Source: Escherichia phage ST2. Taken from it: DNA of 64,000 nucleotides. A program made the position numbers and the translations under genes. Positions 26,301 through 59,247 of the stretch are shown in pieces. The stretch is taken from the sequence record OM982647. The stretch is one strand, 5' to 3'. Positions within the stretch are counted from its first letter, which is position 1. Every line of letters starts with the position of its first letter. The notes beneath the pieces are model-generated. The model did not search any database, was not told the DNA's origin, and saw only the letters and a program-made list of their open reading frames with translations.

Positions 26301-26656
26301 GTGATAACATTGATGTTAACGACGTTTATATTCGTTCTGATATTCGTTGTAAGTCGGAAATTAAGCTTATTAAGAACGCTCAAGAGAAATCTAAACTATT
26401 GGGCGGTTATACTTATCTGCTTAAAAACTCTGTTACAGACGAAGTTAAACCGTCCGCAGGTTTAATTGCTCAGGAAGTTCAAGAAGTATTACCTGAACTT
26501 GTTTCTGAAGATAAAGAGACCGGACTGCTTCGTTTGAACTATAACGGTATTATTGGTTTAAATACAGCTGCAATAAACGAGCATACAGATGAAATCAAGG
26601 AATTGAAATCTGAAATTACCGAATTGAAAGCATTAATTAAATCATTGATAAAATAA
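23393..26656 (+). CDS. 37: long tail fibre distal subunit gp37 with C-terminal intramolecular chaperone (S74-like) domain
   Basis: 1087 aa; N-terminal MATLKQIQFKRSKTAGARPAASVLAEGELAINLKD...; last ~115 aa carry the autoproteolytic chaperone signature (SDIRCKSEIK ... GGYTYLLK ... GLIAQEVQEVLPELV ... LRLNYNGIIGL). Confidence 0.9.
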   Translation: MATLKQIQFKRSKTAGARPAASVLAEGELAINLKDRVLFTKDDQGNIIDLGFAKGGSIDGNVIHTGNYNQTGDYTLNGVFTQTGNFNLTGIARVTRDIIAAGQIMTEGGELITKSSGTAHVRFFDGNSRERGIIYAPANDGLTTQVLNIRVQDYAAGSESTYAFSGSGLFTSPEVSAWKSMSTPQILTDKVITDGKKTGDYDIYSLSNNTPMAEGETAINHLRVMRNAVGAGIFHEVNVNDGITWYSGDGLDTYLWSFNWAGGLKAGHSISVGLPGGPKGYSELGTASIVLGDNDTGLKWHQDGYFYTVNNGTKTFIYGPGETQSLRKMVMAYSPDGLLMTTPPTENYALATVVTYHDNNAYGDGQTLLGYYQGGNYHHYFRGKGTTNINTHGGLLVTPGNIDVIGGSVNIDGRNNSSTLMFRGNTTGYSSVDNMDIKVWGNTFVDPSGGIRKNIMEISDATSWMSYIQRLTTGEVEMNVNGSFESSGVTAGDRGVHTTGEISSGAVNALRIWNADYGAIFRRSEGSLHIIPTAYGEGKDGDIGPLRPFSMALDTGKVTIPDLQSSYNTFAANGYIKFVGHGAGAGGYDIQYAQAAPIFQEIDDAEVSKYYPIVKQKFLQGKAVWSLGTEINSGTFVIHHIKEDGTQAHTSRFNADGTVNFPDNVQVGGGEATIARNGNIFSNIWNVFTSAGDITNIHDAIASRVAKEGDTMTGKLSINAPDDALVLNAPSATNSSHIRSTVAGANSWFIGKGGVSDTVSFYNYKSQTGIDISAEGNISFNPQSGNLVSMSQNRMYVNGERWVATNQGAINVQYGVEAPVFVNLGELNGNVYYPLIKGRSSSTGYGYLSSVELGQLRTGDNNWGIGCIIVRSAENTPEQGHPAAVYQFDARGNFSAPAGVYSNVNMGIGTIPVWGGPSLAIGDNDTGFVWEADGIFNAYANGQGVFSFRPGLAQTFGNVNFHCNAGMYVRDNIDVNDVYIRSDIRCKSEIKLIKNAQEKSKLLGGYTYLLKNSVTDEVKPSAGLIAQEVQEVLPELVSEDKETGLLRLNYNGIIGLNTAAINEHTDEIKELKSEITELKALIKSLIK

Positions 26657-26661
26657 TAAAA

Positions 26662-26675
26662 GGGCCTTCGGGCCC
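26662..26675 (+). other. GC hairpin GGGCCttcgGGCCC between genes 37 and 38 (no T-tract; overlaps gene 38 ribosome-binding site)
   Basis: perfect 5-bp stem with tetraloop immediately before TGGAGG ribosome-binding site. Confidence 0.4.
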
Positions 26676-26686
26676 TGGAGGTTTAT

Positions 26687-27466
26687 ATGGCAGTAGTAGG
26701 AATCCCTGGTTGGATTGGGACCTCAGCCGTTGCTGAAACGGGTCAAAGATGGATGACGGCTGCTTCAAGGGAACTTCGTTTAGGAAACCCTTCATGGATG
26801 TCCCAATTCGCGGGCCGTTCAAGAGAAATAATTCATACACTTGGTGCAGACCATAACTTTAACGGACAATGGTTCCGAGATAGATGTTTTGAGGCAGGTA
26901 GTACACCTATAGTGTTTAATATCACTGGAGATTTAGTATCATATTCTAAAGATGTTCCTTTATTCTTCATGTACGGAGATACACCGAATGAATATGTTCA
27001 GTTGAATATACACGGCGTAACGATGTATGGACGTGGGGGTAATGGCGGTAGCAATAGTCCTGGCTCAGCTGGAGGTCATTGTATTCAAAACGATATTGGT
27101 GGGAGACTAAGAATTAATAATGGTGGAGCTATTGCAGGCGGCGGTGGCGGCGGTGGCGGCGGTATATATGGCAGACTATCATTTGGTGGTGGCGGTGGTC
27201 GTCCATTTGGTGCTGGTGGGTCTTCCTCTCATATGGGTGCTGGTGCAACCGCTGGCACCATTTCCGCTCCGGGTGCAGGATCTGTCGGTGAGGGGTCTCT
27301 TTGGGTATATACAGGCGGGAATGGCGGCGAAGTTGGCTCTGCAGGAGGAAGATGTAATATTCATGGTAACGGCACAGAATATAACGGCGGCGGTGCTGGT
27401 TATGCTGTTATAGGGTCTGCTCCAACGTGGATAAATGTTGGAGCAATATATGGTCCAAGAGTATAA
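26687..27466 (+). CDS. 38: gp38 receptor-recognising adhesin (T2-type, glycine-rich motifs flanking variable segments)
   Basis: 259 aa; conserved N-terminal gp37-binding region then multiple Gly islands ([61 protein letters not shown]). Confidence 0.85.
27137..27163 (+). repeat. (GGC/GGT)9 simple codon repeat encoding poly-Gly in gene 38
   Basis: ggcggcggtggcggcggtggcggcggt seen directly. Confidence 0.8.
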
Positions 27467-50919: not shown

Positions 50920-51117
50920 ATGTTTAAACTTCCATCGTTAATCAACGCTATTAAAGGCAATAAAAAGAAAACTGCTATCGCCGCAATAGTTGTAGGTGGC
51001 ATTATTTCATGGAACTTCGGTATCGCACCATTATTAGTTGCTAATGGTATTATAGTTCCTTCTGTTCCATTGGATACTGTAGTTGATTTGGCCTTTGCTT
51101 TAGTTGGGCTTGTTTAA
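50920..51117 (+). CDS. small membrane protein (two predicted TM helices), convergent with flanking genes
   Basis: 65-aa ORF with strong AAGGAG ribosome-binding site 7 nt before ATG; hydrophobic segments AIAAIVVGGIISW and VVDLAFALVGLV. Confidence 0.5.
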   Translation: MFKLPSLINAIKGNKKKTAIAAIVVGGIISWNFGIAPLLVANGIIVPSVPLDTVVDLAFALVGLV

Positions 51118-52136
51118 ATCTTAGAATAATGAGATAATCTCATTTTAGCATGCAACCCACTTGAAATATTCTGTTTCATATATTCTAAAATTTCTTGTGG
51201 TGTTGCATTTTCTTTCATTACCATATCATTCACATCCTTTGATCTCCATGGAGCTCGATCCCAGAACATGACACGTTCGCCTGCATCAACTAATCGCTTC
51301 ATACGAGCTATAGTATCCGGATGCCTAGGTTCATTATCCATTACCCATACCCGACGTTCTTTAAATGGTACCACATCTAAATCTATTGAGCCGCCTGTAA
51401 TAGCGATTGCGTTTGGTATGAATAAACTATCAATAGGACCTTCCATTACCCAGACGTCCCCTTCCTTAACACGTTCAACACCATAAATTTTTGTTGCAGA
51501 CTCAAACGCTTTAATAGTGATATATTTCTGAGGAGCATCTTTACGAAGTGCACGTCCTTGGAACGACTCGGCCTTCCCATCTTTATTAAAAATAGGAATC
51601 ACTAAACGCGGTTCAGGAATCTCTTTCTTATACGTACCCGGTTGAATCTTGTTGACCAATTTGGGCCATTCTAATGTGAACCATAATCTGTTCCATGATT
51701 CTTTAGGAATACACCGAGACTTAACATATTTCACAATAGGATGCTCTTCAGGCAACTTGTCTAGACGAGAACAAGACGGCAAAGAATTTATAGTCTTTTT
51801 CTCTGGCTCCGGTTTAGCTTCAGGAACCTTTTCAATCTTTGGTTCCATTCTAGCTTTTTCTTTACGAACTTCCATTAGATATTCGCGATAAAGCTCTTCA
51901 TCATACTCTTTTAAGTATCCGGAAATTGTATTGTGGTATTGACAGTTATAGCAATGCACATTACCAGGAGTACCGCCATAATACCATCCGCGAGCTTTCA
52001 TTGCATCTGTCTGGGAGTCGCCACAAACTGGACATCGAAATGTTAATTTAAATGTGCTTGAATTATTGATTTGTCTAAAACGAGGTAGGTGAGAAAACGC
52101 ACGATAAGCAAATTCATTATCTATCCATTCAGCCAT
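51114..52136 (-). CDS. 61: DNA primase gp61
   Basis: zinc ribbon FRCPVCGDSQTD...CYNCQYH and Toprim region; start set at internal Met (AEWIDNEFAYRA) giving 341 aa as in T4 (track ORF extends to 52172). Confidence 0.95.
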   Translation of the reverse strand: MAEWIDNEFAYRAFSHLPRFRQINNSSTFKLTFRCPVCGDSQTDAMKARGWYYGGTPGNVHCYNCQYHNTISGYLKEYDEELYREYLMEVRKEKARMEPKIEKVPEAKPEPEKKTINSLPSCSRLDKLPEEHPIVKYVKSRCIPKESWNRLWFTLEWPKLVNKIQPGTYKKEIPEPRLVIPIFNKDGKAESFQGRALRKDAPQKYITIKAFESATKIYGVERVKEGDVWVMEGPIDSLFIPNAIAITGGSIDLDVVPFKERRVWVMDNEPRHPDTIARMKRLVDAGERVMFWDRAPWRSKDVNDMVMKENATPQEILEYMKQNISSGLHAKMRLSHYSKI

Positions 52137-52176
52137 AGTATTCTCCAGAGGCCTTAAATTAATAAGGCCCATCTTA

Positions 52177-52671
52177 TCACAACTTATTAATATTTACTTT
52201 AATTCGCTTTCTTTTCTTGGAAGGAATTTGTTCGGGACCTTTATTTACGACTGCACCTGTAGTTGTTCCTGATGCAATAGCTTGAGGGCTGCCACCTGAA
52301 TCGCCAGCAACCATATCCTCAAATAAAGGGAGCTCTTTAAATATTTCTTTCTGTTGTTCTTCCGTAATGTTATAGCGTGAAGCTACAGCACTCCAGGCAG
52401 ACATCATTGAGGCCATTCCATTAAGACCCGGAACAGTGCTCATCATTCGCTTCATTGAACGAACTGAAGCATGAAAAGGTGTATACGCCGCTTTTTCTTC
52501 GGGAGTAGAAGGACGTTTAAGAACACTTCCACGTTCATCGATGATTTTGGCGTCGTATGCTTTCCATTCGGTAAAAGGTTTTTGCATTAGTCGAATAAAC
52601 TTATATGCGTAAACAGAATCTATTGCAGTGTTAATAATACCCATAGGTACCTCCTGAGTATATTTAATCAA
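52177..52671 (-). CDS. hypothetical protein (61.1-like position)
   Basis: 164-aa ORF with basic C-terminus. Confidence 0.45.
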   Translation of the reverse strand: MIKYTQEVPMGIINTAIDSVYAYKFIRLMQKPFTEWKAYDAKIIDERGSVLKRPSTPEEKAAYTPFHASVRSMKRMMSTVPGLNGMASMMSAWSAVASRYNITEEQQKEIFKELPLFEDMVAGDSGGSPQAIASGTTTGAVVNKGPEQIPSKKRKRIKVNINKL

Positions 52672-52861
52672 TTACAAAGATTGCTTTGTCACCATTTATA
52701 TCTGTGACTTCATACGTAGTGCCTTCATACTGTGGAATATTCCAAATTACACCATCATTAGCTTTTACGCTAATATGGCATTGGTGTTTTGAAACAACTT
52801 CATAATCTTCAAAACTTGTAAAAACACTAATTTTAGAACCAGTGCAAATTGCAGTAGTCAT
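52664..52861 (-). CDS. hypothetical small protein
   Basis: 65-aa ORF. Confidence 0.35.
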   Translation of the reverse strand: MTTAICTGSKISVFTSFEDYEVVSKHQCHISVKANDGVIWNIPQYEGTTYEVTDINGDKAIFVID

Positions 52862-52862
52862 T

Positions 52863-53522
52863 TTAACCTCGATTCATAAATGCATTAAATATTTGGTCAT
52901 CAACAGAAATTTCTAATTCGACTTCAATTGCTTCGGCCTTTTCTTCAGGTGGTAATTCGTATCCACACACTACAATTTTTTCATCAATATCAAAATATAC
53001 AGAAGCAATACGATTAATGTTATTTTCGGTTAAGTCCAAATCAACATCAACATCTTTTTGACCTACACTTAAAGGATAACTAATACGGGTTATTTTATTA
53101 TCTTTAACAAAGAGTCCACCAACATACTCTGTACTACGTTTGAAGTCTACACGTTTCCGAAATGAAAGATATGATGCATCTTTACCGTGAGCTCGGCTCA
53201 TAGGACATAATGAATAGCTAGAATAAGAGATGTCAAATCCTACACCTTCAATATGAGCCAACGTGTCATGGTTAAACCAATTATAATCATATGCCAAATC
53301 CATTAAATTATAATATGTGAAAGGCACTGGATTAACATCGTACGTTGTACCTTTAAAATCTGCCCAGGCAACGATTTCGTTATCTTTAACAATTACAAAA
53401 ATTACACCAAGATGGTATCCGTTATTATTTTCATTCGGCGTTATATTATAACATTGTGCATTAGGAAATTTACCATATTTAAATGGTGCGTTTTTGTGCA
53501 TGTAATAAATCATATTATTCAC
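52863..53522 (-). CDS. hypothetical protein (61.2-like position)
   Basis: 219-aa ORF. Confidence 0.45.
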   Translation of the reverse strand: MNNMIYYMHKNAPFKYGKFPNAQCYNITPNENNNGYHLGVIFVIVKDNEIVAWADFKGTTYDVNPVPFTYYNLMDLAYDYNWFNHDTLAHIEGVGFDISYSSYSLCPMSRAHGKDASYLSFRKRVDFKRSTEYVGGLFVKDNKITRISYPLSVGQKDVDVDLDLTENNINRIASVYFDIDEKIVVCGYELPPEEKAEAIEVELEISVDDQIFNAFMNRG

Positions 53523-53808
53523 CTGTGATTTCGGTTACGATATCTTTGTTATCGAAATTAGGGTCACAATACAAGACATAGTTGTACTGCATGATACCGC
53601 CGGACTTAAGTTGGTCAACAACTTTATTAACCATATTAGGACGGTCTCGTTTAGTGATGTTCATGATATCAGAGAAGATTTGTTGTTCAACATCTTCTTG
53701 ATTTGCAGTCATTGACCACTCACAGAGGTCTTTATCATAACCTGCCGTAACTGGAGCTGGTGCACATGATACTGCAAGTAAGATTGCTGCCAATGATAAC
53801 TTTTTCAT
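53515..53808 (-). CDS. secreted periplasmic protein, Spackle-like (superinfection exclusion candidate)
   Basis: 97 aa with N-terminal signal peptide MKKLSLAAILLAVSCAPAPVTA; position matches T4 sp (61.3); size matches. Confidence 0.45.
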   Translation of the reverse strand: MKKLSLAAILLAVSCAPAPVTAGYDKDLCEWSMTANQEDVEQQIFSDIMNITKRDRPNMVNKVVDQLKSGGIMQYNYVLYCDPNFDNKDIVTEITGE

Positions 53809-53834
53809 TTTAGCTCCTTAGTTGATTTGATAGG

Positions 53835-53869
53835 ACTACTATACTATAGTCCATCTATAATGTAAACAA
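53835..53869 (-). promoter_or_regulatory. early promoter-like element (GTTTAC ... TATAGT) with GGACTA/TAGTCC inverted repeat
   Basis: read on minus strand upstream of the Spackle-like gene. Confidence 0.35.
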
Positions 53870-53871
53870 GT

Positions 53872-54120
53872 TTATTCTTTTTCGCTAATAATAATTACTT
53901 GTTGAGGCGGCTGAGCAGATTTCTTTTCGGCAACGATAGACCAAATTAAAGTTCCAATCCAACCGACCATCGTCCAGTTAAAGAGTAAAGATACAAAGAA
54001 GATTGCTGTTGTGCTTTTTGTGCCACGAATAAGTGCGATTACCCAAGGCAACATGTAAATGATGATTGAACCAATACCTGCAATTAAAACTGCTACTGAA
54101 CTAGCTACGAATAATTCCAT
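53872..54120 (-). CDS. small integral membrane protein (two TM helices)
   Basis: 82 aa; hydrophobic segments VAVLIAGIGSIIIYMLPWVIALI and AIFFVSLLFNWTMVGWIGTLIWSI. Confidence 0.45.
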   Translation of the reverse strand: MELFVASSVAVLIAGIGSIIIYMLPWVIALIRGTKSTTAIFFVSLLFNWTMVGWIGTLIWSIVAEKKSAQPPQQVIIISEKE

Positions 54121-54181
54121 GTTAATTTCCTCTTGATTTGTTATGTTTATAATATCTTGTTTTAACTTTGGCGTAAACCAA

Positions 54182-54550
54182 TTAATTAAATTTGTTTAAA
54201 CGTTCAATACACTGGATGTAGTTATTCGCGATTTGTTTCTGGGTAGGCTCTTTACCAGTTGTTTCAACATAGCGAATGAATGCGATTTCAGTAGCCTGTA
54301 AACAATGCTCTTTAACACGTTGTTCTTTTGTCATAGCTACAGTATCAGAATCACGATAACGTTGAGCATGAGCATCAGCTTGAATCATTCGATTACCTAC
54401 AGTAACCGGGTCTTCCACTTCAACTTTAGGTTGGTCATATTGTTTAACATTCGGATTGTAAATCAGTTGGCCAACGTTATTAGGGATAAAGCCATGAGCA
54501 CCACATCCGGTTAATCCGAATACCATTGCTAAAGCGATTAATTTTTTCAT
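54182..54550 (-). CDS. lipoprotein (signal peptide + lipobox LTGC)
   Basis: 122 aa; MKKLIALAMVFGLTGC... Confidence 0.5.
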   Translation of the reverse strand: MKKLIALAMVFGLTGCGAHGFIPNNVGQLIYNPNVKQYDQPKVEVEDPVTVGNRMIQADAHAQRYRDSDTVAMTKEQRVKEHCLQATEIAFIRYVETTGKEPTQKQIANNYIQCIERLNKFN

Positions 54551-54620
54551 TTCAATTTCCTCTGTAGTTGATAAAAAGATAGTAACACAGTATGTGGTGC
54601 TTGTAAACAGTTATTTAAAA

Positions 54621-54830
54621 TTATCGAAAATCTGCTTCGAAAACTTTCTCGTCATTAACAAATGCTTTAACCAGTGCACTGTTCACTTCAGCAAGTTGTA
54701 CCGCAACCCACTCGATTTCTTCACGGTCGCCTGATAACATGATATCTTTAGTGAACATCTCACCACTTTTAAACCAACCGATAAAAGTAACTTTAGTTAA
54801 TTTGCTCATATTTCCTCGCAAAATGCCCAT
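54621..54830 (-). CDS. hypothetical small protein (dmd/61.5-like position)
   Basis: 69-aa ORF (probably starting at an internal Met, about 62 aa) adjacent to the helicase-proximal end of the 61.x array. Confidence 0.3.
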   Translation of the reverse strand: MGILRGNMSKLTKVTFIGWFKSGEMFTKDIMLSGDREEIEWVAVQLAEVNSALVKAFVNDEKVFEADFR

Positions 54831-55123
54831 TCAGCGTGATAAACTGTAGCGCCTTTAGTATCATTCATTTGAACTACATCTACCGGAGAAATTACTCGAT
54901 AGAGACGTGGTTCACCTCCATAAGAGCGTGCTGCTCGTCCTGCATAAATCTTTGCTAAACCGATATCTTCAGTAAAGAATACACGATTCAGGTTTTTCTT
55001 ACGTCCAGTTTCAGACAGAACTCCTGTTTCCTCAGGAGGACAAAGCATGTTTTCGATGTTAGCTGAACTGCTTGAACCGTGATAAAAAATCTTAAATTCT
55101 GCTTTACAATCGATGGTTTTCAT
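54806..55123 (-). CDS. hypothetical protein
   Basis: 105-aa ORF with own early promoter. Confidence 0.4.
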   Translation of the reverse strand: MKTIDCKAEFKIFYHGSSSSANIENMLCPPEETGVLSETGRKKNLNRVFFTEDIGLAKIYAGRAARSYGGEPRLYRVISPVDVVQMNDTKGATVYHAEWAFCEEI

Positions 55124-55145
55124 TTTGTTCTCCAGTAGTTGATAG

Positions 55146-55180
55146 GTCTATAATAACACAACTACTGGAGAAGTAAACTT
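55146..55180 (-). promoter_or_regulatory. early promoter GTTTAC-N17-TATTATA flanked by 10-bp inverted repeat CCAGTAGTTG/CAACTACTGG
   Basis: seen directly. Confidence 0.4.
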
Positions 55181-55553
55181 AAAAACGTAATTTAGATACG
55201 TCTGCGTTGATTTCGTTTTGGTTTGCATCGTACGCAATTAAACGAACCGCTTTAGATGGGTCATTCAATGCATAGAAATGATGGAACATTGCTCGAACGA
55301 TATCACCATTTACGAGTTCTACTTGGATAGGAGAACCTTTTTCGAGTTGGAAATGTTCATAAGCTTTGATGGTTCGTAGATAATCAAGTTTTTGATTTCC
55401 AGCTCCAACTATTTGTACGATACGTTTGCCCATGTTTTCCATACGAGATACAATAGTTTTAGGAGCAAGAATAACGTAGGTTGCCAGCGGAGAAACTACT
55501 TCAACAGTTGTGTTTTCGGTGATTGCAGTAAAAATTGCTTGAGACATATTCAT
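55179..55553 (-). CDS. hypothetical protein
   Basis: 124-aa ORF. Confidence 0.4.
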   Translation of the reverse strand: MNMSQAIFTAITENTTVEVVSPLATYVILAPKTIVSRMENMGKRIVQIVGAGNQKLDYLRTIKAYEHFQLEKGSPIQVELVNGDIVRAMFHHFYALNDPSKAVRLIAYDANQNEINADVSKLRF

Positions 55554-55619
55554 AATGTTTTCCTCTTGGTTAGTGTAAGTACATCATATCATGCCTAGAG
55601 GAAGATGTAAACCCCGAAA

Positions 55620-55635
55620 GGAGACCGAAGTCTCC
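55620..55635 (-). terminator. terminator hairpin GGAGACttcgGTCTCC + U-run downstream of gene 41
   Basis: perfect stem; TTTTTATTA follows on plus strand, another complementary segment precedes. Confidence 0.5.
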
Positions 55636-55641
55636 TTTTTA

Positions 55642-57084
55642 TTAAAATTTTAACTCATTGGCTAAGCTATCTAGGTCAGCACGTGTTGCTTTGGCTTTAC
55701 CTACGCGTTCCGTACGATTCACCTCTGCCTGACGCATCTGAGCACCTGCGTTTTCATTTACTGTGTTAGGTGTGTTCATGCCTTCTTGCTCAATCTCAAT
55801 CCATTTCTGGTTGCCTTTACGTACACCCATCAGGAATTTATTCCACTTATTCTTATCGCCGTATCGTGATTTGATTTGTTTGATAAGTTGTTGTTCAGCT
55901 TGTGCAAGTTCTTCGGTTTCAATTACAGCCAACATGAAATCTGCCGTTGCTGGTAAACCTGCTGATTCTGCAATATCACTCATGTTCATATCCGAAGCAT
56001 CCCATGCTGCACGTCCTACTTGAGCTGCAGTCCATAGAACTGTTTCAGATTCTACTGCTAATGCACGAAGTTCTTCTGCGATAGCTTTAACTAATGTGTA
56101 GCTATTTTCAGTGTAAACTCTGATACGACAAGACCCACAAATACCTAAGTAATCAACCATGATTACAGATGGCACAAAGTTCTTCTTGAGTTTCAATTCA
56201 TTAAGCAATGCACGGAATGTATTAGCATTAGCTCCGCCAGTAGGATACTGTTTAACTACTAAACGTCCTAATGTGGATTTTGAACGCCATTTTTCCATCT
56301 TGGCTTTATATTCGGCATAAGATACGTTACCATCATCGATATCATCAAGTGATACGTCAAGCATGTTTGCATCTATACGCTTAGCACAAACTTCTTCAGC
56401 CATTTCCATGGAAATATAAAGAACGTTATGACCTGTTTGAAGATAATCTGCAGCAAGTGAACAAAGGCCTAAAGATTTACCAACGTTAACACCGGCCATT
56501 AAAACATTCAGTGTACCGGTTTCAGCACCACCTTTAGTGATTTTATTCAGAATGTTTAATTTGAACGGGACCTTACGTGCTTTATTTAGATAAGAAAGCC
56601 AGCGTGCTTCGTAGTCTTCCATCCAGTCATGTCCAACATAACTATCAAACGAAATTGAAAGTGCTTGACGCATAATATCAGGAATAGCTCCTACATCAGG
56701 CATTTTCTTGTTACGTTGTTCTGGAGGTAGTTCAGCATTAGACTGAATCTCAATGATTTTGGATGTAGCATTATACATCGCTTTTTGCTGGACATATTTC
56801 TCAGTTTCTTTAACCAACCATTCATGGTCTTCAGGAGTATCAGCCAATTTTTCAATTAGGTCTGAAGTTCCTTTATATTCGGCTTCAGTTAAAGAACTGT
56901 TATCTAAAGCCACCTTTAATGCATTGATAGATGGCATTGCATTATATTCGTTAACGTGGCTCTTTATAATTTTAAAGACATTTTTTGCCGGTCCACGCTC
57001 AAAATACTCAGAATCCATATAAGGCCAGACCTTAGAAAAATAAGCCTGGTCGTATACTAGATGAGACAAAATAATTTCTACCAC
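55642..57084 (-). CDS. 41: replicative DNA helicase gp41 (DnaB-like)
   Basis: 480 aa; Walker A GVNVGKS, RecA-like helicase domain; T4 position. Confidence 0.95.
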   Translation of the reverse strand: MVEIILSHLVYDQAYFSKVWPYMDSEYFERGPAKNVFKIIKSHVNEYNAMPSINALKVALDNSSLTEAEYKGTSDLIEKLADTPEDHEWLVKETEKYVQQKAMYNATSKIIEIQSNAELPPEQRNKKMPDVGAIPDIMRQALSISFDSYVGHDWMEDYEARWLSYLNKARKVPFKLNILNKITKGGAETGTLNVLMAGVNVGKSLGLCSLAADYLQTGHNVLYISMEMAEEVCAKRIDANMLDVSLDDIDDGNVSYAEYKAKMEKWRSKSTLGRLVVKQYPTGGANANTFRALLNELKLKKNFVPSVIMVDYLGICGSCRIRVYTENSYTLVKAIAEELRALAVESETVLWTAAQVGRAAWDASDMNMSDIAESAGLPATADFMLAVIETEELAQAEQQLIKQIKSRYGDKNKWNKFLMGVRKGNQKWIEIEQEGMNTPNTVNENAGAQMRQAEVNRTERVGKAKATRADLDSLANELKF

Positions 57085-57093
57085 GATAACTCC

Positions 57094-57456
57094 TTAAAAG
57101 AATTTAAATTTTTTCTTGGTTCGTTCATTAAAAGCTTGTTGTACTTGCATTGTAACACATTTTTCAACATGCTGTGCAAGTTCTGCTTTTCTGTCCTGGT
57201 CAAGAACTGCAAAGTCCATTACGATTTTACCATCAACCCAGTCTAGTTTTGTAATATAGACTATATGATGGGAACCGTCTTCAAGTGTAATCAGAATCTC
57301 TTGAATGACATTTTCCATTGCTGAACGGATAATTTTAAGAGATTCATTAAACACTCGTTCTTTGCGAATGTCTTCCCCTTCCGAAGAAGGGGATTCATCA
57401 ACGATTTCTATATTTAAATCATCGAGATTATTCATCGAAATCTTCCATTTCGTCAA
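57094..57456 (-). CDS. 40: gp40-like head vertex assembly protein
   Basis: 120-aa ORF between 41 and uvsX, as gene 40 in T4. Confidence 0.5.
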   Translation of the reverse strand: MTKWKISMNNLDDLNIEIVDESPSSEGEDIRKERVFNESLKIIRSAMENVIQEILITLEDGSHHIVYITKLDWVDGKIVMDFAVLDQDRKAELAQHVEKCVTMQVQQAFNERTKKKFKFF

Positions 57457-58600
57457 GGTCGTTTTCTATATCTGCTGCAGATGGAGCATCAGAAGTTTTA
57501 ACCGGAACTTTAGTTGTTGCTTTGCAATTAATAAGGTCGTTAACAGCGTCATCAACTTCTTTAATAGAAGAGATAGCACCTAGTTTATATTTAGTTTCAA
57601 TTGCATCTCGGAAAGGTTTGTGTTTAAACAAAGGTCCCCAGAATTCTACACAATCAGTAGCTTTAGCACGCCATGATTTTTCTTCACGAATCATTTCACC
57701 TGTTTCTTCGTCAAGGAATTCACGAGCATACCAACCGGCTTTAGGCTTAACTACAAAACCAATTTCAGTTGCCATTTCTAGCAAGCCGCTGAATGGGTCG
57801 ATACCACCATCAAAATTAACTGTGATTGGGAAAGTAGATTTTTCTTTAACTGTACGAGATTTTTCTGCTTTCAACGTGAAGTCATAACCGGTCAATTCTG
57901 TACCTTCTTTAACCTGACGTTTAGAGATAAAGAATACAGTGTTAGCAGAGTAAAGAATACCTGTACCACCACCCATAATCTCTTTAGGATATAGTCCGCC
58001 GATTTCCATTGCTGTATGGTTGATTGCAACACACGGAATATCTTTAATAGTCAGATAAGGAGTCACAATACGGAACAGAGATTTAAGTGCCTTAGCACGA
58101 GACATATCACCTACGACTTTCTCGTTCAATGCATCTTCGGTTTCTTTCTTAGATGCAGTATTACCGATCGAGTCAATAAAGATAATAACTTTATCACCGC
58201 GTTCAATAGCGTCAAGCTGATTAGTCATATCAACTTTAAGTTGTTCGACAGATTGAATCGGAGTATGAACTACACGGTCTAAATCAACACCCATCGAACG
58301 GAAGTAAGATTCTGAAGCACCGAATTCTGAGTCATAAAACAAACAGATTGCATCTTTATATTTCTTCATATACGCTGCAACCATAGTCAGCCCAAACAAC
58401 GTTTTAAAGTGTTTAGAAGGAGCAGCAAAAATAGTTAAGCCTGATTGCAACCCTGCATTCAGTGCACCACCTAATGCAATATTCAACATCGGAATACGAG
58501 TAGGGACTTCATCACGATTATTAAACAGCTTAGACTTAGTCAAGTCTGCAGTCATTTTAGAAGTAGAAGCTTTAATCAGACGAGATTTTAAATCAGACAT
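57428..58600 (-). CDS. uvsX: UvsX recombinase (RecA-like)
   Basis: 390 aa; RecA fold motifs (FAAPSKHFKT, IFIDSIGN) and length of T4 UvsX (391 aa). Confidence 0.95.
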   Translation of the reverse strand: MSDLKSRLIKASTSKMTADLTKSKLFNNRDEVPTRIPMLNIALGGALNAGLQSGLTIFAAPSKHFKTLFGLTMVAAYMKKYKDAICLFYDSEFGASESYFRSMGVDLDRVVHTPIQSVEQLKVDMTNQLDAIERGDKVIIFIDSIGNTASKKETEDALNEKVVGDMSRAKALKSLFRIVTPYLTIKDIPCVAINHTAMEIGGLYPKEIMGGGTGILYSANTVFFISKRQVKEGTELTGYDFTLKAEKSRTVKEKSTFPITVNFDGGIDPFSGLLEMATEIGFVVKPKAGWYAREFLDEETGEMIREEKSWRAKATDCVEFWGPLFKHKPFRDAIETKYKLGAISSIKEVDDAVNDLINCKATTKVPVKTSDAPSAADIENDLDEMEDFDE

Positions 58601-58698
58601 TGTATTTTTCCATAGGCATCATTATATTTTACTCATGTTTAAAAGATAAGACGATTATATACTAAGGGTTATACAGCATTTAAAACTTTAAATGGCTC

Positions 58699-59247
58699 TT
58701 AACGAGCCCATTTGATGATTTCTGTAATCAAACCATTACGTTCGCTTGCATTAAATCCTATAACTTTGTTAGCACCATCATGATTAAGTAATTGATACGT
58801 TTGGATTTTGTTATGAATTGCAAACTCTTCAAAATGTGAAATGACTGTATTAAAACCGAATGAAGACAAAGTAATAAGGTCGTCTTCAAAACTTTCAGTC
58901 ATTTCGTTACGTGTTAAAATAATTGTGAACACATCATGGTTTTGGCAAAGACGAACATAATCCTGTTCATAAACGTCAAGAACAGAGTCCGCATCTTGTC
59001 GAATACGTCCGTAAACCCAGTTACTAATATATCCACGATCTAACAGATAAATCTTAGTAGGGTCTAAATAATTCAACATCGTTTCGAAACAGCCAACTTC
59101 GTTTCGAGACTTAACATCGAAACGTCCATCAACTGTTCGTTTAGGGAAATCAATCTTTACATATCTTTCACTAATTTCCATTATGTCATTAATGAAAGTT
59201 GTTTTACCAGCATTATCCGGGCCATCTACTAAAATAATTTTAGCCAT
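58699..59247 (-). CDS. P-loop NTPase / nucleotide-kinase-like protein at the T4 bgt locus
   Basis: 182 aa; Walker A ILVDGPDNAGKTT at residues 5-17; small size typical of (d)NMP or sugar kinases; no similarity to T4 beta-glucosyltransferase. Confidence 0.55.
   Translation of the reverse strand: MAKIILVDGPDNAGKTTFINDIMEISERYVKIDFPKRTVDGRFDVKSRNEVGCFETMLNYLDPTKIYLLDRGYISNWVYGRIRQDADSVLDVYEQDYVRLCQNHDVFTIILTRNEMTESFEDDLITLSSFGFNTVISHFEEFAIHNKIQTYQLLNHDGANKVIGFNASERNGLITEIIKWAR

What the first reader, a model, noticed from the sequence alone, without database searches (positions are those of the whole stretch)
53515..55553. Cluster of secreted, membrane and lipoprotein ORFs between primase 61 and helicase 41, including extra genes relative to T4
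Within the 61.x interval there is a signal-peptide protein of Spackle size (97 aa), a two-TM membrane protein (82 aa), a lipobox lipoprotein (122 aa, LTGC), and further 69-, 105- and 124-aa ORFs with their own early promoters. Envelope-targeted early proteins in T-even phages are typically superinfection-exclusion or anti-defence factors; the lipoprotein and the last two ORFs have no counterpart I can place in T4.
Basis: partly seen in the sequence, partly recalled or inferred. Interest (0 to 1): 0.5.

Follow-up and report, generated by a model that had tools for sequence, protein, structure and literature searches.

The report
T-even early accessory-gene island, mostly known
This stretch of an RB69-like coliphage is its early "host-interaction" gene island: four of the six genes are well-known T4 genes, and the other two, which T4 lacks, are a small uncharacterised ADP-ribosyltransferase-like protein and an orphan protein.

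Summary
The six ORFs exist at the stated coordinates, all on the minus strand. The window is a Mosigvirus (RB69-like T-even phage, 98% identical to PhAPEC2).

Four ORFs are known T4 genes:
- The 97-aa ORF is Spackle (66% identical to T4 Sp).
- The 82-aa ORF is Imm itself (61%), not gp61.4.
- The 122-aa lipoprotein is Imm.1/DUF5481 (33%; T4 Imm.1 also has a lipobox).
- The "69-aa" ORF is Dmd. It is really 62 aa, and its start overlaps the stop of the 105-aa ORF.

So the lipoprotein does have a T4 counterpart. The imm.1-imm cassette has simply moved from T4's 42-43 interval to sit beside sp, as the RB69 record already annotates.

Only the 105- and 124-aa ORFs are absent from the whole T4 genome.
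- The 105-aa protein is a minimal ADP-ribosyltransferase fold closest to Tpt1/KptA, Arr and AcrF11. It occurs in 609 phage records and is more conserved than helicase gp41. It is very probably the "p0068-family ART + Dmd" pair predicted computationally in 2022, and no experimental study turned up.
- The 124-aa protein is a Mosigvirus/Dhakavirus orphan with no detectable fold or family.

Five T4-type early promoters are confirmed. The anti-ToxN gene tifA (61.4), present in RB69, is missing here.

Overall: mostly ordinary and already annotated, with one worthwhile enzyme candidate.

The parts
55620..55635 (-). GGAGAC-UUCG-GUCUCC hairpin just after the gp41 stop codon and ahead of the first early promoter
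   Evidence: Read directly from the sequence. It has no T-run, so the terminator scan did not call it. Its function is inferred: an RNA-stabilising hairpin or a weak terminator.
55583..55612 (-). T4-type early promoter ahead of the 124-aa ORF (GTTTACA...TATGAT)
55179..55553 (-). ORF124: an orphan cytoplasmic protein, the homologue of RB69ORF041c. Function unknown.
   Evidence: Matches phrog_10668 only, with no Pfam, NCBIfam or PDB match. Found in 134 phage records, nearly all Mosigvirus. Only 3 true relatives among 1.84 billion representative proteins. The AF2 model is unusable, pLDDT 35. Absent from T4.
55150..55178 (-). T4-type early promoter ahead of the 105-aa ORF and Dmd (GTTTACT...TATTAT)
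54806..55123 (-). ORF105: a minimal Arr/Tpt1-like ADP-ribosyltransferase-fold protein, the homologue of RB69ORF040c
54621..54809 (-). dmd (62 aa): antitoxin against RnlA/LsoA, translationally coupled to ORF105 by an ATGA overlap
   Evidence: PF17587 E 3.3e-19. 54% identical to T4 Dmd. SD and overlap shown.
54579..54608 (-). T4-type early promoter ahead of imm.1. It fills the 70-bp gap where RB69 carries tifA/61.4.
54182..54550 (-). imm.1: a lipoprotein of family DUF5481 (lipobox LTGC, Cys16, Gly at +2)
   Evidence: PF17578 38.6 bits against a cut-off of 27. 33% identical to T4 Imm.1, E 3e-19, with the lipobox and two Cys aligned. Lipobox located.
54149..54178 (-). T4-type early promoter ahead of imm
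53872..54120 (-). imm: inner-membrane superinfection immunity protein
   Evidence: PF14373 E 1.9e-15. 61% identical to T4 Imm over its full length. Two hydrophobic segments.
53838..53867 (-). T4-type early promoter ahead of sp
53515..53808 (-). sp (Spackle): periplasmic inhibitor of the gp5 tail lysozyme
   Evidence: PF25676 E 1.2e-42. 66% identical to T4 Sp. Matches PDB 6X6O, 6XC0 and 7CN6.
52863..53513 (-). adfA (gp61.2, anti-DarT factor A). It lies just outside the finding but belongs to the same island.
   Evidence: PF23813 E 2.8e-121. 67% identical to T4 gp61.2. The ATG at 53513 was read and agrees with the phage mogra annotation.

Best explanation
The region is the plastic, early-transcribed accessory-gene island that T-even phages carry between the replication genes 41 (helicase) and 61 (primase). 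It is built from small cassettes, each read by host RNA polymerase from its own T4-type early promoter within minutes of infection.

In this Mosigvirus the island holds the following.
1. Both classical T-even superinfection-exclusion functions, side by side.
   - Spackle is exported to the periplasm, where it blocks the gp5 tail lysozyme of a second phage.
   - Imm sits in the inner membrane and blocks DNA entry.
   - Imm.1 is Imm's constant upstream partner. It is a lipoprotein predicted to be lipidated at Cys16 and sorted to the outer membrane.
   - The imm.1-imm cassette has been moved here as a unit from the 42-43 interval it occupies in T4.
2. Counter-defence genes against toxin-antitoxin systems: Dmd (against RnlA/LsoA) inside the region and AdfA (against DarT) directly downstream. 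TifA (against ToxN) is missing.
3. Two genes T4 lacks.
   - ORF105 is a 105-aa minimal ADP-ribosyltransferase domain of the H-Y-[EDQ] clade. It shares a promoter with Dmd and is translationally coupled to it. I infer that it is an active NAD+-using enzyme that modifies a highly conserved target in the infected cell, because it is more conserved than the replicative helicase.
   - ORF124 is a fast-evolving orphan that precedes the transferase gene wherever it occurs.

Shown here: gene identities, the ORF105 fold, promoter motifs, synteny and absence from T4. Inferred: catalytic activity and target of ORF105, outer-membrane location and role of Imm.1, and any role for ORF124.
For: Gene identities: Pfam, PHROG and direct T4 comparisons, PDB Spackle, and the RB69 and phage mogra annotations.

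Relocation: T4 imm/imm.1 lie at 26373-27013 between genes 42 and 43, in the same order.

Promoters: 5 of the window's 21 early-promoter motifs fall in this 2 kb, against about 3 expected by chance in the whole 64 kb.

Anti-defence character of the interval: AdfA family hit; dmd and tifA experiments (PMC9391042).

ORF105:
- Confident model, pLDDT 86.
- Foldseek top PDB hit is Arr, and a 94-aa siphovirus 'Arr-ms' protein matches at 38% identity.
- hhalign pairs H15 with the catalytic His of Arr (H19 in Arr-ms numbering), and the E-x-G-R loop with Arr's.
- 4 of 25 family members hit PF12120, best E 2.6e-6.
- Identity exceeds that of gp41 and gp61 in the same genomes, for example 90 vs 68 vs 61% and 74 vs 58%.

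Absence of ORF105 and ORF124 from T4.
Against: - ORF105 has an invariant Phe (F49) where Arr and PARPs have the motif Tyr.
- Its third catalytic residue is ambiguous (D88 by spacing, or D82).
- It scores below Pfam's Arr threshold (13.5 vs 25 bits) and lacks Arr's C-terminal ~55 residues. Activity is therefore not assured and the substrate cannot be read from homology.
- No conserved neighbour points to a target.
- Imm.1 has, to my knowledge, no published function, so its role in exclusion rests only on constant linkage with imm.
- ORF124 has no structural or family information at all.
Confidence: 0.85

Rival explanations
1. ORF105 and Dmd form a phage-borne type II toxin-antitoxin pair. The ADP-ribosyltransferase is the toxin (perhaps modifying RNA) and Dmd neutralises it. 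This was proposed computationally for the 'p0068-family ART + Dmd' pair by Iyer et al. 2022.
For: - The ORF105 stop and the Dmd start overlap (ATGA) and share one promoter.
- The same adjacency occurs in 11 independent IMG/VR loci, in a Dhakavirus and in a metagenomic contig.
- The published prediction is in PMC9503650, section 3.7.1.
Against: - In 54 of 65 IMG/VR loci that carry an ORF105 homologue, no Dmd lies within 3 kb, and the downstream gene differs between lineages.
- T4 has Dmd directly after gene 41 with no transferase anywhere in its genome.
- Dmd has an experimentally established, sufficient role against host RnlA.
- Extreme conservation of ORF105 across hosts fits an enzyme with a conserved target better than an addiction toxin.
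Confidence: 0.12
2. ORF105 is not an enzyme. It is an ART-fold binder or decoy, for example a sponge for NAD+-derived immune signals, or a mimic that titrates a host ART-binding factor.
For: - The motif Tyr is replaced by an invariant Phe, and no clearly placed catalytic Glu/Asp can be assigned.
- The protein is very small (105 aa) and lacks the substrate-binding parts of Arr and Tpt1.
- It sits in an anti-defence island next to the anti-DarT gene.
Against: - The invariant Y-H-G motif, the aromatic Y60 on the helix and the E-x-G-R loop are the NAD+-site elements that active Arr keeps.
- Phe can still stack on nicotinamide (inference).
- AcrF11, a comparably small phage ART, is to my knowledge an active enzyme.
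Confidence: 0.2
3. Imm.1 acts on its own as a receptor- or envelope-masking lipoprotein, in the manner of T5 Llp, rather than as a helper of Imm.
For: - The lipobox is conserved between T4 and this phage despite only 33% identity, and two further Cys align.
- In this phage imm.1 has its own early promoter, separate from that of imm.
Against: imm.1 and imm stay adjacent and in the same order in both genome locations, which suggests a joint function. No similarity to Llp or any characterised lipoprotein was found.
Confidence: 0.2

Closest known systems
T4 Spackle (sp, gp61.3; PDB 6X6O/6XC0/7CN6)
   Same: Same length (97 aa), 66% identity, same signal peptide, and the same position upstream of 61.2/adfA.
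   Different: Nothing of note. It is an orthologue.
T4 Imm and Imm.1 (imm.1-imm cassette)
   Same: Imm is 61% identical over its full length. Imm.1 is 33% identical, with the lipobox and two Cys conserved. Gene order is the same, imm.1 then imm.
   Different: - The location differs: between dmd and sp here and in RB69, between genes 42 and 43 in T4.
- Here each gene has its own early promoter. In T4 only 11 bp separate the two genes.
T4 Dmd
   Same: 54% identity, in Pfam family PF17587, located in the 41-61 interval.
   Different: - In T4, dmd follows gene 41 directly and is followed by tifA.
- Here it is translationally coupled to an upstream ART-fold gene, and tifA is absent.
Arr (rifampin ADP-ribosyltransferase; PDB 2HW2, 9IAF, 9IBA)
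   Same: - Shared motifs: F/Y-H-G-[ST], E-x-G-R, a hydrophobic strand followed by a helix, and G-x-x-x-[IL]-[YF]-x-V.
   Different: - ORF105 lacks about 55 C-terminal residues of Arr.
- The motif Tyr is Phe.
- The Pfam score is below threshold.
- The family is phage-only and early-expressed.
A rifamycin substrate is therefore unlikely (inference).
Tpt1/KptA RNA 2'-phosphotransferase
   Different: ORF105 consists of that lobe only. From my own knowledge of Tpt1, the N-terminal RNA-binding lobe carrying the catalytic Arg-His-Arg-Arg tetrad has no equivalent in a 105-aa protein.
AcrF11 (phage anti-CRISPR ADP-ribosyltransferase; PDB 6KYF)
   Different: No sequence-level relationship was detected. 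AcrF11's target, Cas8f of type I-F CRISPR (from my own knowledge), is narrowly distributed, whereas ORF105 is conserved across phages of many genera.
'p0068-family ART + Dmd' pair of Iyer et al. 2022 (Viruses 14:1977)
   Same: Described for Escherichia, Shigella and Salmonella phages as an H-Y-[EDQ]-clade ART next to Dmd. That is exactly this arrangement.
   Different: The identity of ORF105 with 'p0068' is inferred from the description, because no accession list was available. The wider survey here does not support an obligate pair.

Membership tests
Spackle (PF25676) | Full-length match above the Pfam threshold and similarity to the solved T4 protein | tested here: met
   144.8 bits against a cut-off of 27; PDB 6X6O E 2.6e-39; 66% identical to T4 Sp.
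Spackle (PF25676) | Cleavable Sec signal peptide for periplasmic export | tested here: met
   MKK + hydrophobic segment 4-24 + VTA|G. The PDB construct 7CN6 begins at the residue aligned with query residue 23.
Spackle (PF25676) | Inhibits the gp5 lysozyme and excludes superinfecting phage | not testable with these tools
   Needs biochemistry or infection assays.
Imm superinfection immunity (PF14373) | Pfam match above threshold and orthology to T4 Imm | tested here: met
   56.9 bits against a cut-off of 27.9; 61% identity over 83 residues.
Imm superinfection immunity (PF14373) | Small membrane protein with two hydrophobic segments | tested here: met
   Kyte-Doolittle segments at 1-34 and 40-59.
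Imm.1 / DUF5481 (PF17578) | Pfam match above threshold and similarity to T4 Imm.1 | tested here: met
   38.6 bits against a cut-off of 27; 33% identity, E 3e-19.
Bacterial-type lipoprotein | Lipobox [LVI][ASTVI][GAS]C at the end of a signal peptide | tested here: met
   LTGC at 13-16 after MKK + hydrophobic core. T4 Imm.1 has LAGC at the aligned position.
Bacterial-type lipoprotein | Actual lipidation and cleavage by signal peptidase II | not testable with these tools
   Needs globomycin or palmitate labelling.
Dmd (PF17587) | Pfam match above threshold and orthology to T4 Dmd | tested here: met
   69.4 bits against a cut-off of 27; 54% identity.
ADP-ribosyltransferase superfamily, H-Y-[EDQ] clade (ORF105) | ART split beta-sheet fold | tested here: met
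   [not shown]
ADP-ribosyltransferase superfamily, H-Y-[EDQ] clade (ORF105) | Motif 1: His on strand 1 (x-H-G-[ST]) | tested here: met
   Y14-H15-G16 is invariant in 25 diverse members. H15 aligns with the catalytic His of Arr (H22 in Arr-2, H19 in Arr-ms).
ADP-ribosyltransferase superfamily, H-Y-[EDQ] clade (ORF105) | Motif 2: Tyr on strand 2 | tested here: not met
   An invariant Phe (F49) aligns with Tyr49 of Arr-ms. An invariant Tyr (Y60) lies on the following helix.
ADP-ribosyltransferase superfamily, H-Y-[EDQ] clade (ORF105) | Motif 3: catalytic Glu/Asp/Gln | tested here: inconclusive
   D88 (Asp in 20 of 25 members) matches Arr-ms D84 by spacing from the conserved Pro. D82 is an alternative. 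The automatic alignment is unreliable in this part.
ADP-ribosyltransferase superfamily, H-Y-[EDQ] clade (ORF105) | NAD+-dependent transfer of ADP-ribose | not testable with these tools
   Needs an enzyme assay.
Arr family (PF12120) | Pfam match above the gathering threshold over the whole domain | tested here: not met
   13.5 bits against a cut-off of 25, covering profile positions 1-59 of 99. Only 4 of 25 relatives match at E <= 1. The C-terminal ~55 residues of Arr are absent.
Tpt1/KptA | Two-lobe architecture with an N-terminal RNA-binding lobe | tested here: not met
   ORF105 is 105 aa and aligns to only 75 residues of a 179-residue chain.
Type II toxin-antitoxin pair (ART + Dmd) | Obligate co-occurrence of the two genes | tested here: not met
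   Dmd follows the ART in 11 of 65 IMG/VR loci (12 of 66 with this window). T4 has Dmd but no ART.
Type II toxin-antitoxin pair (ART + Dmd) | Toxicity of one partner relieved by the other | not testable with these tools
   Needs expression experiments.

The most novel reading that the evidence does not exclude
ORF105 is an active ADP-ribosyltransferase of about 100 residues, which would make it among the smallest known. On this reading it is a fourth T-even ART class, overlooked because T4 lacks it, and it modifies a universally conserved non-protein or core-machinery target early in infection: an RNA end, a nucleotide signal or a small molecule, as Tpt1 and Arr do. ORF124-ART-Dmd would then form one counter-defence module.
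Probability: 0.25. Interest if true: 0.6.

Novelty: new member of a known kind. Interest (0 to 1): 0.3.

Why it matters
Most of the cluster only re-identifies textbook T4 genes, so it adds little. What remains is ORF105.
- It is an ART-fold gene present in 609 phage records from many host genera, including Escherichia, Klebsiella, Acinetobacter, Aeromonas and Vibrio.
- It is more conserved than the replicative helicase.
- It sits in the island that has already yielded Dmd, TifA and AdfA.
- It is absent from T4 and appears never to have been tested.

If it is active, it would add a new enzyme class to the ADP-ribosylation repertoire of T-even phages (Alt, ModA and ModB in T4). It would also point to a conserved host process worth identifying. 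Many of these phages are candidates for phage therapy.

The variable presence of tifA also gives a simple predictor of ToxIN sensitivity within Mosigvirus.

Tried and rejected
1. Sequence searches of ORF105 (profile A1 and the distant member P0120) against PDB chains found nothing meaningful. Only fold comparison worked.
2. ORF124 gave nothing anywhere: no Pfam, NCBIfam or PDB match. An exhaustive HMMER search of 1.84 billion representatives returned 3 true relatives plus a 22-residue motif match to a repeat protein. The AF2 model had pLDDT 35, so no fold search was attempted.
3. I looked for a conserved partner of the ART by clustering all same-strand ORFs within +/-3 kb in 66 loci. No cluster other than the ART itself is present in more than 23 loci, and those that recur are simply 41-61 synteny. 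The downstream small ORFs in Klebsiella, Acinetobacter and Aeromonas phages are unrelated to each other.
4. The large ORFs near the ART in RB16 and in Acinetobacter phage Berthold are unrelated, and Pfam gave nothing informative.
5. In RB16-like phages the ART lies about 1.4 kb upstream of srd-rnlB (RNA ligase 2), with four genes between. That is too loose to support an RNA-repair role.
6. Rfam found no RNA family in 51000-58700. The single hit, a microRNA family at E 0.28, is noise.
7. The generic sigma-70 scan was not enriched (24 found against 19.7 expected). Only the T4-specific GTTTAC pattern is informative.
8. A second homologue search with the A1 profile listed only close relatives.
9. 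The supplement of Iyer et al. was not available, so 'p0068' membership could not be confirmed by accession. The afdb50 fold library was unavailable.
Full report
**Identity of the window.** The 2.3-kb region matches 258 phage records. Of these, 154 are at 95-99% identity, and the best is Escherichia phage PhAPEC2 at 98.3%. The annotated relative, phage mogra, is a Mosigvirus in Straboviridae, Tevenvirinae, the genus of RB69. All genes here run on the minus strand in this order: uvsX, 40, 41, ORF124, ORF105, dmd, imm.1, imm, sp, 61.2/adfA, a 65-aa ORF, 61.1, 61.

**Check of the observation.** The six ORFs lie exactly at the stated limits.
- A simple hydropathy and motif analysis confirms a signal-peptide-like N-terminus in the 97-aa protein, two hydrophobic segments in the 82-aa protein, and a lipobox LTGC (residues 13-16) in the 122-aa protein. 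The other three have no hydrophobic segment. Every gene has a Shine-Dalgarno sequence.
- The T4 early-promoter pattern GTTTAC-N16-18-TANNNT occurs 21 times in the window against 3.0 +/- 1.8 in shuffles. Twenty are on the minus strand. Five fall inside 53838-55612, one each ahead of sp, imm, imm.1, ORF105 and ORF124.
- The generic sigma-70 scan is not enriched.
- One correction: the "69-aa" ORF should start at 54809, giving 62 aa. That ATG follows GAGGAAAT and overlaps the ORF105 stop as ATGA, while the upstream ATG has no SD. This gene therefore shares the ORF105 promoter.

**What the four recognisable genes are.**
- The 97-aa protein is Spackle. It matches PF25676 at E 1.2e-42, is 66% identical to T4 Sp, and matches solved Spackle structures 6X6O and 7CN6.
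- The 82-aa protein is Imm. It matches PF14373 at E 1.9e-15 and is 61% identical to T4 Imm end to end.
- The 122-aa lipoprotein is Imm.1. It matches DUF5481 at 38.6 bits against a cut-off of 27 and is 33% identical to T4 Imm.1 (E 3e-19). T4's LAGC lipobox and two later Cys align with those here.
- The 62-aa protein is Dmd. It matches PF17587 at E 3.3e-19 and is 54% identical to T4 Dmd.

In T4, imm.1 and imm lie between genes 42 and 43 in the same order. In RB69 and in this window the pair sits between dmd and sp, and the RB69 record annotates it so. The lipoprotein is therefore not new. It is a relocated T4 gene, and the relocation places both T-even superinfection-exclusion functions next to each other.

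Immediately downstream, outside the finding, the 216-aa gene is gp61.2 = AdfA, the anti-DarT factor (PF23813, E 2.8e-121). The corresponding T4 interval holds dmd and 61.4 = tifA, an experimentally shown inhibitor of ToxN (PMC9391042).

**The two genes T4 lacks.** I loaded the complete T4 genome and searched it in six frames.
- ORF105 and ORF124 have no match: best tblastn E 2 and 0.3, best profile-HMM E 1.4 and 0.45.
- The five other genes of the island are all found at the expected places.
- RB69 names these genes ORF040c and ORF041c. In that annotation scheme an ORF number marks a gene without a T4 orthologue (PMC1524935).

**ORF105.**
- Distribution. It has more than 120 homologue clusters, essentially all on phage-sized or short metagenomic contigs. 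It occurs in 609 phage records: Escherichia 215, Klebsiella 116, Acinetobacter 68, Aeromonas 62, and also Vibrio, Enterobacter, Cronobacter and Citrobacter. A few depositors label it "putative ADP-ribosyl transferase".
- Conserved residues. An alignment of 25 diverse members has invariant Y14, H15, G16, P30, E38, R41, K43, N44, L45, F49, T51, A57, Y60, R63, G69, G70, V77 and G91.
- Sequence link to Arr. Profile-profile alignment with Arr sequences taken from the PDB gives E 8e-4. It pairs FYHGS with FYHGT, the catalytic His (H19 in Arr-ms numbering; residue numbers checked against the PDB sequence, catalytic role from my own knowledge of Baysarowich et al. 2008). It also pairs E-T-G-R with Arr's E-x-G-R, and V-F-F-T with I-Y-F-S.
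- Departures from Arr. The motif Tyr is an invariant Phe. The acidic third residue is ambiguous, D88 by spacing or D82. ORF105 lacks Arr's last ~55 residues and scores below Pfam's Arr threshold, 13.5 against 25 bits, with 4 of 25 relatives matching and a best E of 2.6e-6.

I therefore file it in the ART superfamily, H-Y-[EDQ] clade, nearest to Arr. It is not a member of the Arr family or of Tpt1.

**Context of ORF105.** Iyer et al. [quoted passage not shown] That is this arrangement, although I could not confirm it by accession. I tested the pairing in 65 IMG/VR loci that carry an ORF105 homologue.
- Dmd follows directly in 11 loci. In the other 54 no Dmd lies within 3 kb.
- Downstream genes in Klebsiella, Acinetobacter and Aeromonas phages are unrelated to one another.
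- Clustering of all neighbouring ORFs finds no universal partner.
- T4 has Dmd without the transferase.

An obligate toxin-antitoxin pair is thus unlikely. The coupling looks like co-expression within a cassette.

ORF105 is more conserved than the replication proteins of the same genomes: 90% against 68% (gp41) and 61% (gp61) in one lineage, 74% against 58% in Acinetobacter phage 133. That argues for an enzyme with a strongly conserved target rather than a fast-evolving inhibitor of one defence protein. The target cannot be inferred. Loose proximity to srd-rnlB in RB16-like phages is not convincing.

**ORF124.** It occurs in 134 phage records, 132 of them at 95% identity or more (Escherichia, Shigella), plus two distant ones.
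- The k-mer search of 5.8 billion proteins found two clusters.
- An exhaustive profile search of 1.84 billion representatives found three true relatives and one repeat protein that shares only a short "V-x-A-Y-D-A-N-G-x-E" motif.
- There is no Pfam, NCBIfam or PDB match, and the model is unusable, pLDDT 35.
- It is a real gene. It has an SD and its own early promoter, and homologues at 36-52% identity keep the same length and conserved blocks (MNxSQAI, ILAP, FHHxY).
- Wherever a homologue was found in context, it sits directly upstream of the transferase: the Salmonella Dhakavirus ABTNLsp5 and a metagenomic contig with the order ORF124-ART-Dmd-Sp.
- Its divergence (36-52%) contrasts with 90% for the neighbouring transferase in ABTNLsp5.

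Its function remains open. My best guess, an arms-race accessory factor linked to the transferase, is inference only.

**Verdict.** Four of the six genes are known and already annotated in RB69. The lipoprotein is T4 Imm.1. The only items of residual interest are an untested Arr/Tpt1-like mini-transferase, already predicted computationally, and one orphan. No RNA family was found in the region.

Noticed in passing
window 54551-54620 (gap between dmd and imm.1): tifA (gp61.4), the ToxN inhibitor that RB69 carries between dmd and imm.1, is absent here and from the whole 64-kb window (no tblastn hit at E<1). A few close relatives (e.g. vB_EQ1, TU01, UGJNEcP1) span about 207 bp more over this block, which would fit a tifA-sized insertion. 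tifA therefore seems variably present within Mosigvirus, and this phage is predicted to be ToxIN-sensitive.
   Followed up: partly
window 52863-53513 (-): Directly downstream of sp lies gp61.2 = AdfA, the anti-DarT factor (PF23813, E 2.8e-121; 67% identical to T4 gp61.2). Its ATG is 1 nt after the sp stop codon. The mechanical ORF list starts it 9 nt too early, at a GTG.
   Followed up: yes
window 52177-52671 (-): The 61.1-like gene is one intact ORF here (155 aa from Met10). In the RB69 reference record it is split into two ORFs: ORF032c (residues 10-60, 98% identical) and 61.1 (residues 73-164, 100% identical). This suggests a frameshift or sequencing error in the RB69 record. T4 61.1 matches only the C-terminal third.
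   Followed up: partly
L074 (Salmonella phage ABTNLsp5) 3254-3652: In this Dhakavirus the transferase gene is followed by two tandem Dmd paralogues (64 and 67 aa, 52% identical to each other). The first is mis-annotated as 'translational repressor protein'.
   Followed up: partly
IMG/VR loci L011-L044 versus the window: The 105-aa ART-fold protein is consistently more conserved than the replicative helicase gp41 and the primase gp61 of the same genomes (e.g. 90/68/61%, 86/66/60%, 74/58%). That is unusual for a non-core accessory gene.
   Followed up: partly
window 50920-51117 (+): A 65-aa hydrophobic ORF lies on the opposite strand between genes 56 and 61. It is the homologue of RB69ORF029w, and the equivalent ORF in a Klebsiella phage is annotated as a transmembrane protein. 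It is one of the very few plus-strand genes in this early region.
   Followed up: no
window 55620-55635 (-): A perfect 6-bp stem with a UUCG tetraloop sits right after the gp41 stop codon, followed by the early promoter of ORF124. It has no T-run, so it is probably an RNA-stabilising hairpin or weak terminator rather than a classical intrinsic terminator.
   Followed up: no
ORF124 residues 96-117 (window about 55203-55268) versus P0159: The C-terminal motif VRLIAYDANQNEINADVSKL resembles a motif (VTVVAYDANGKELDRANVPL) repeated many times in a 729-aa metagenomic repeat protein (5 matched stretches, E 3.5e-5). It may mark a shared beta-hairpin or Ig-like element, or it may be chance.
   Followed up: no
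L004 1237-1614 (T4 imm.1): RefSeq labels T4 Imm.1 'iduronate sulfatase', which looks like a spurious automated name for a 125-aa lipoprotein of unknown function.
   Followed up: no
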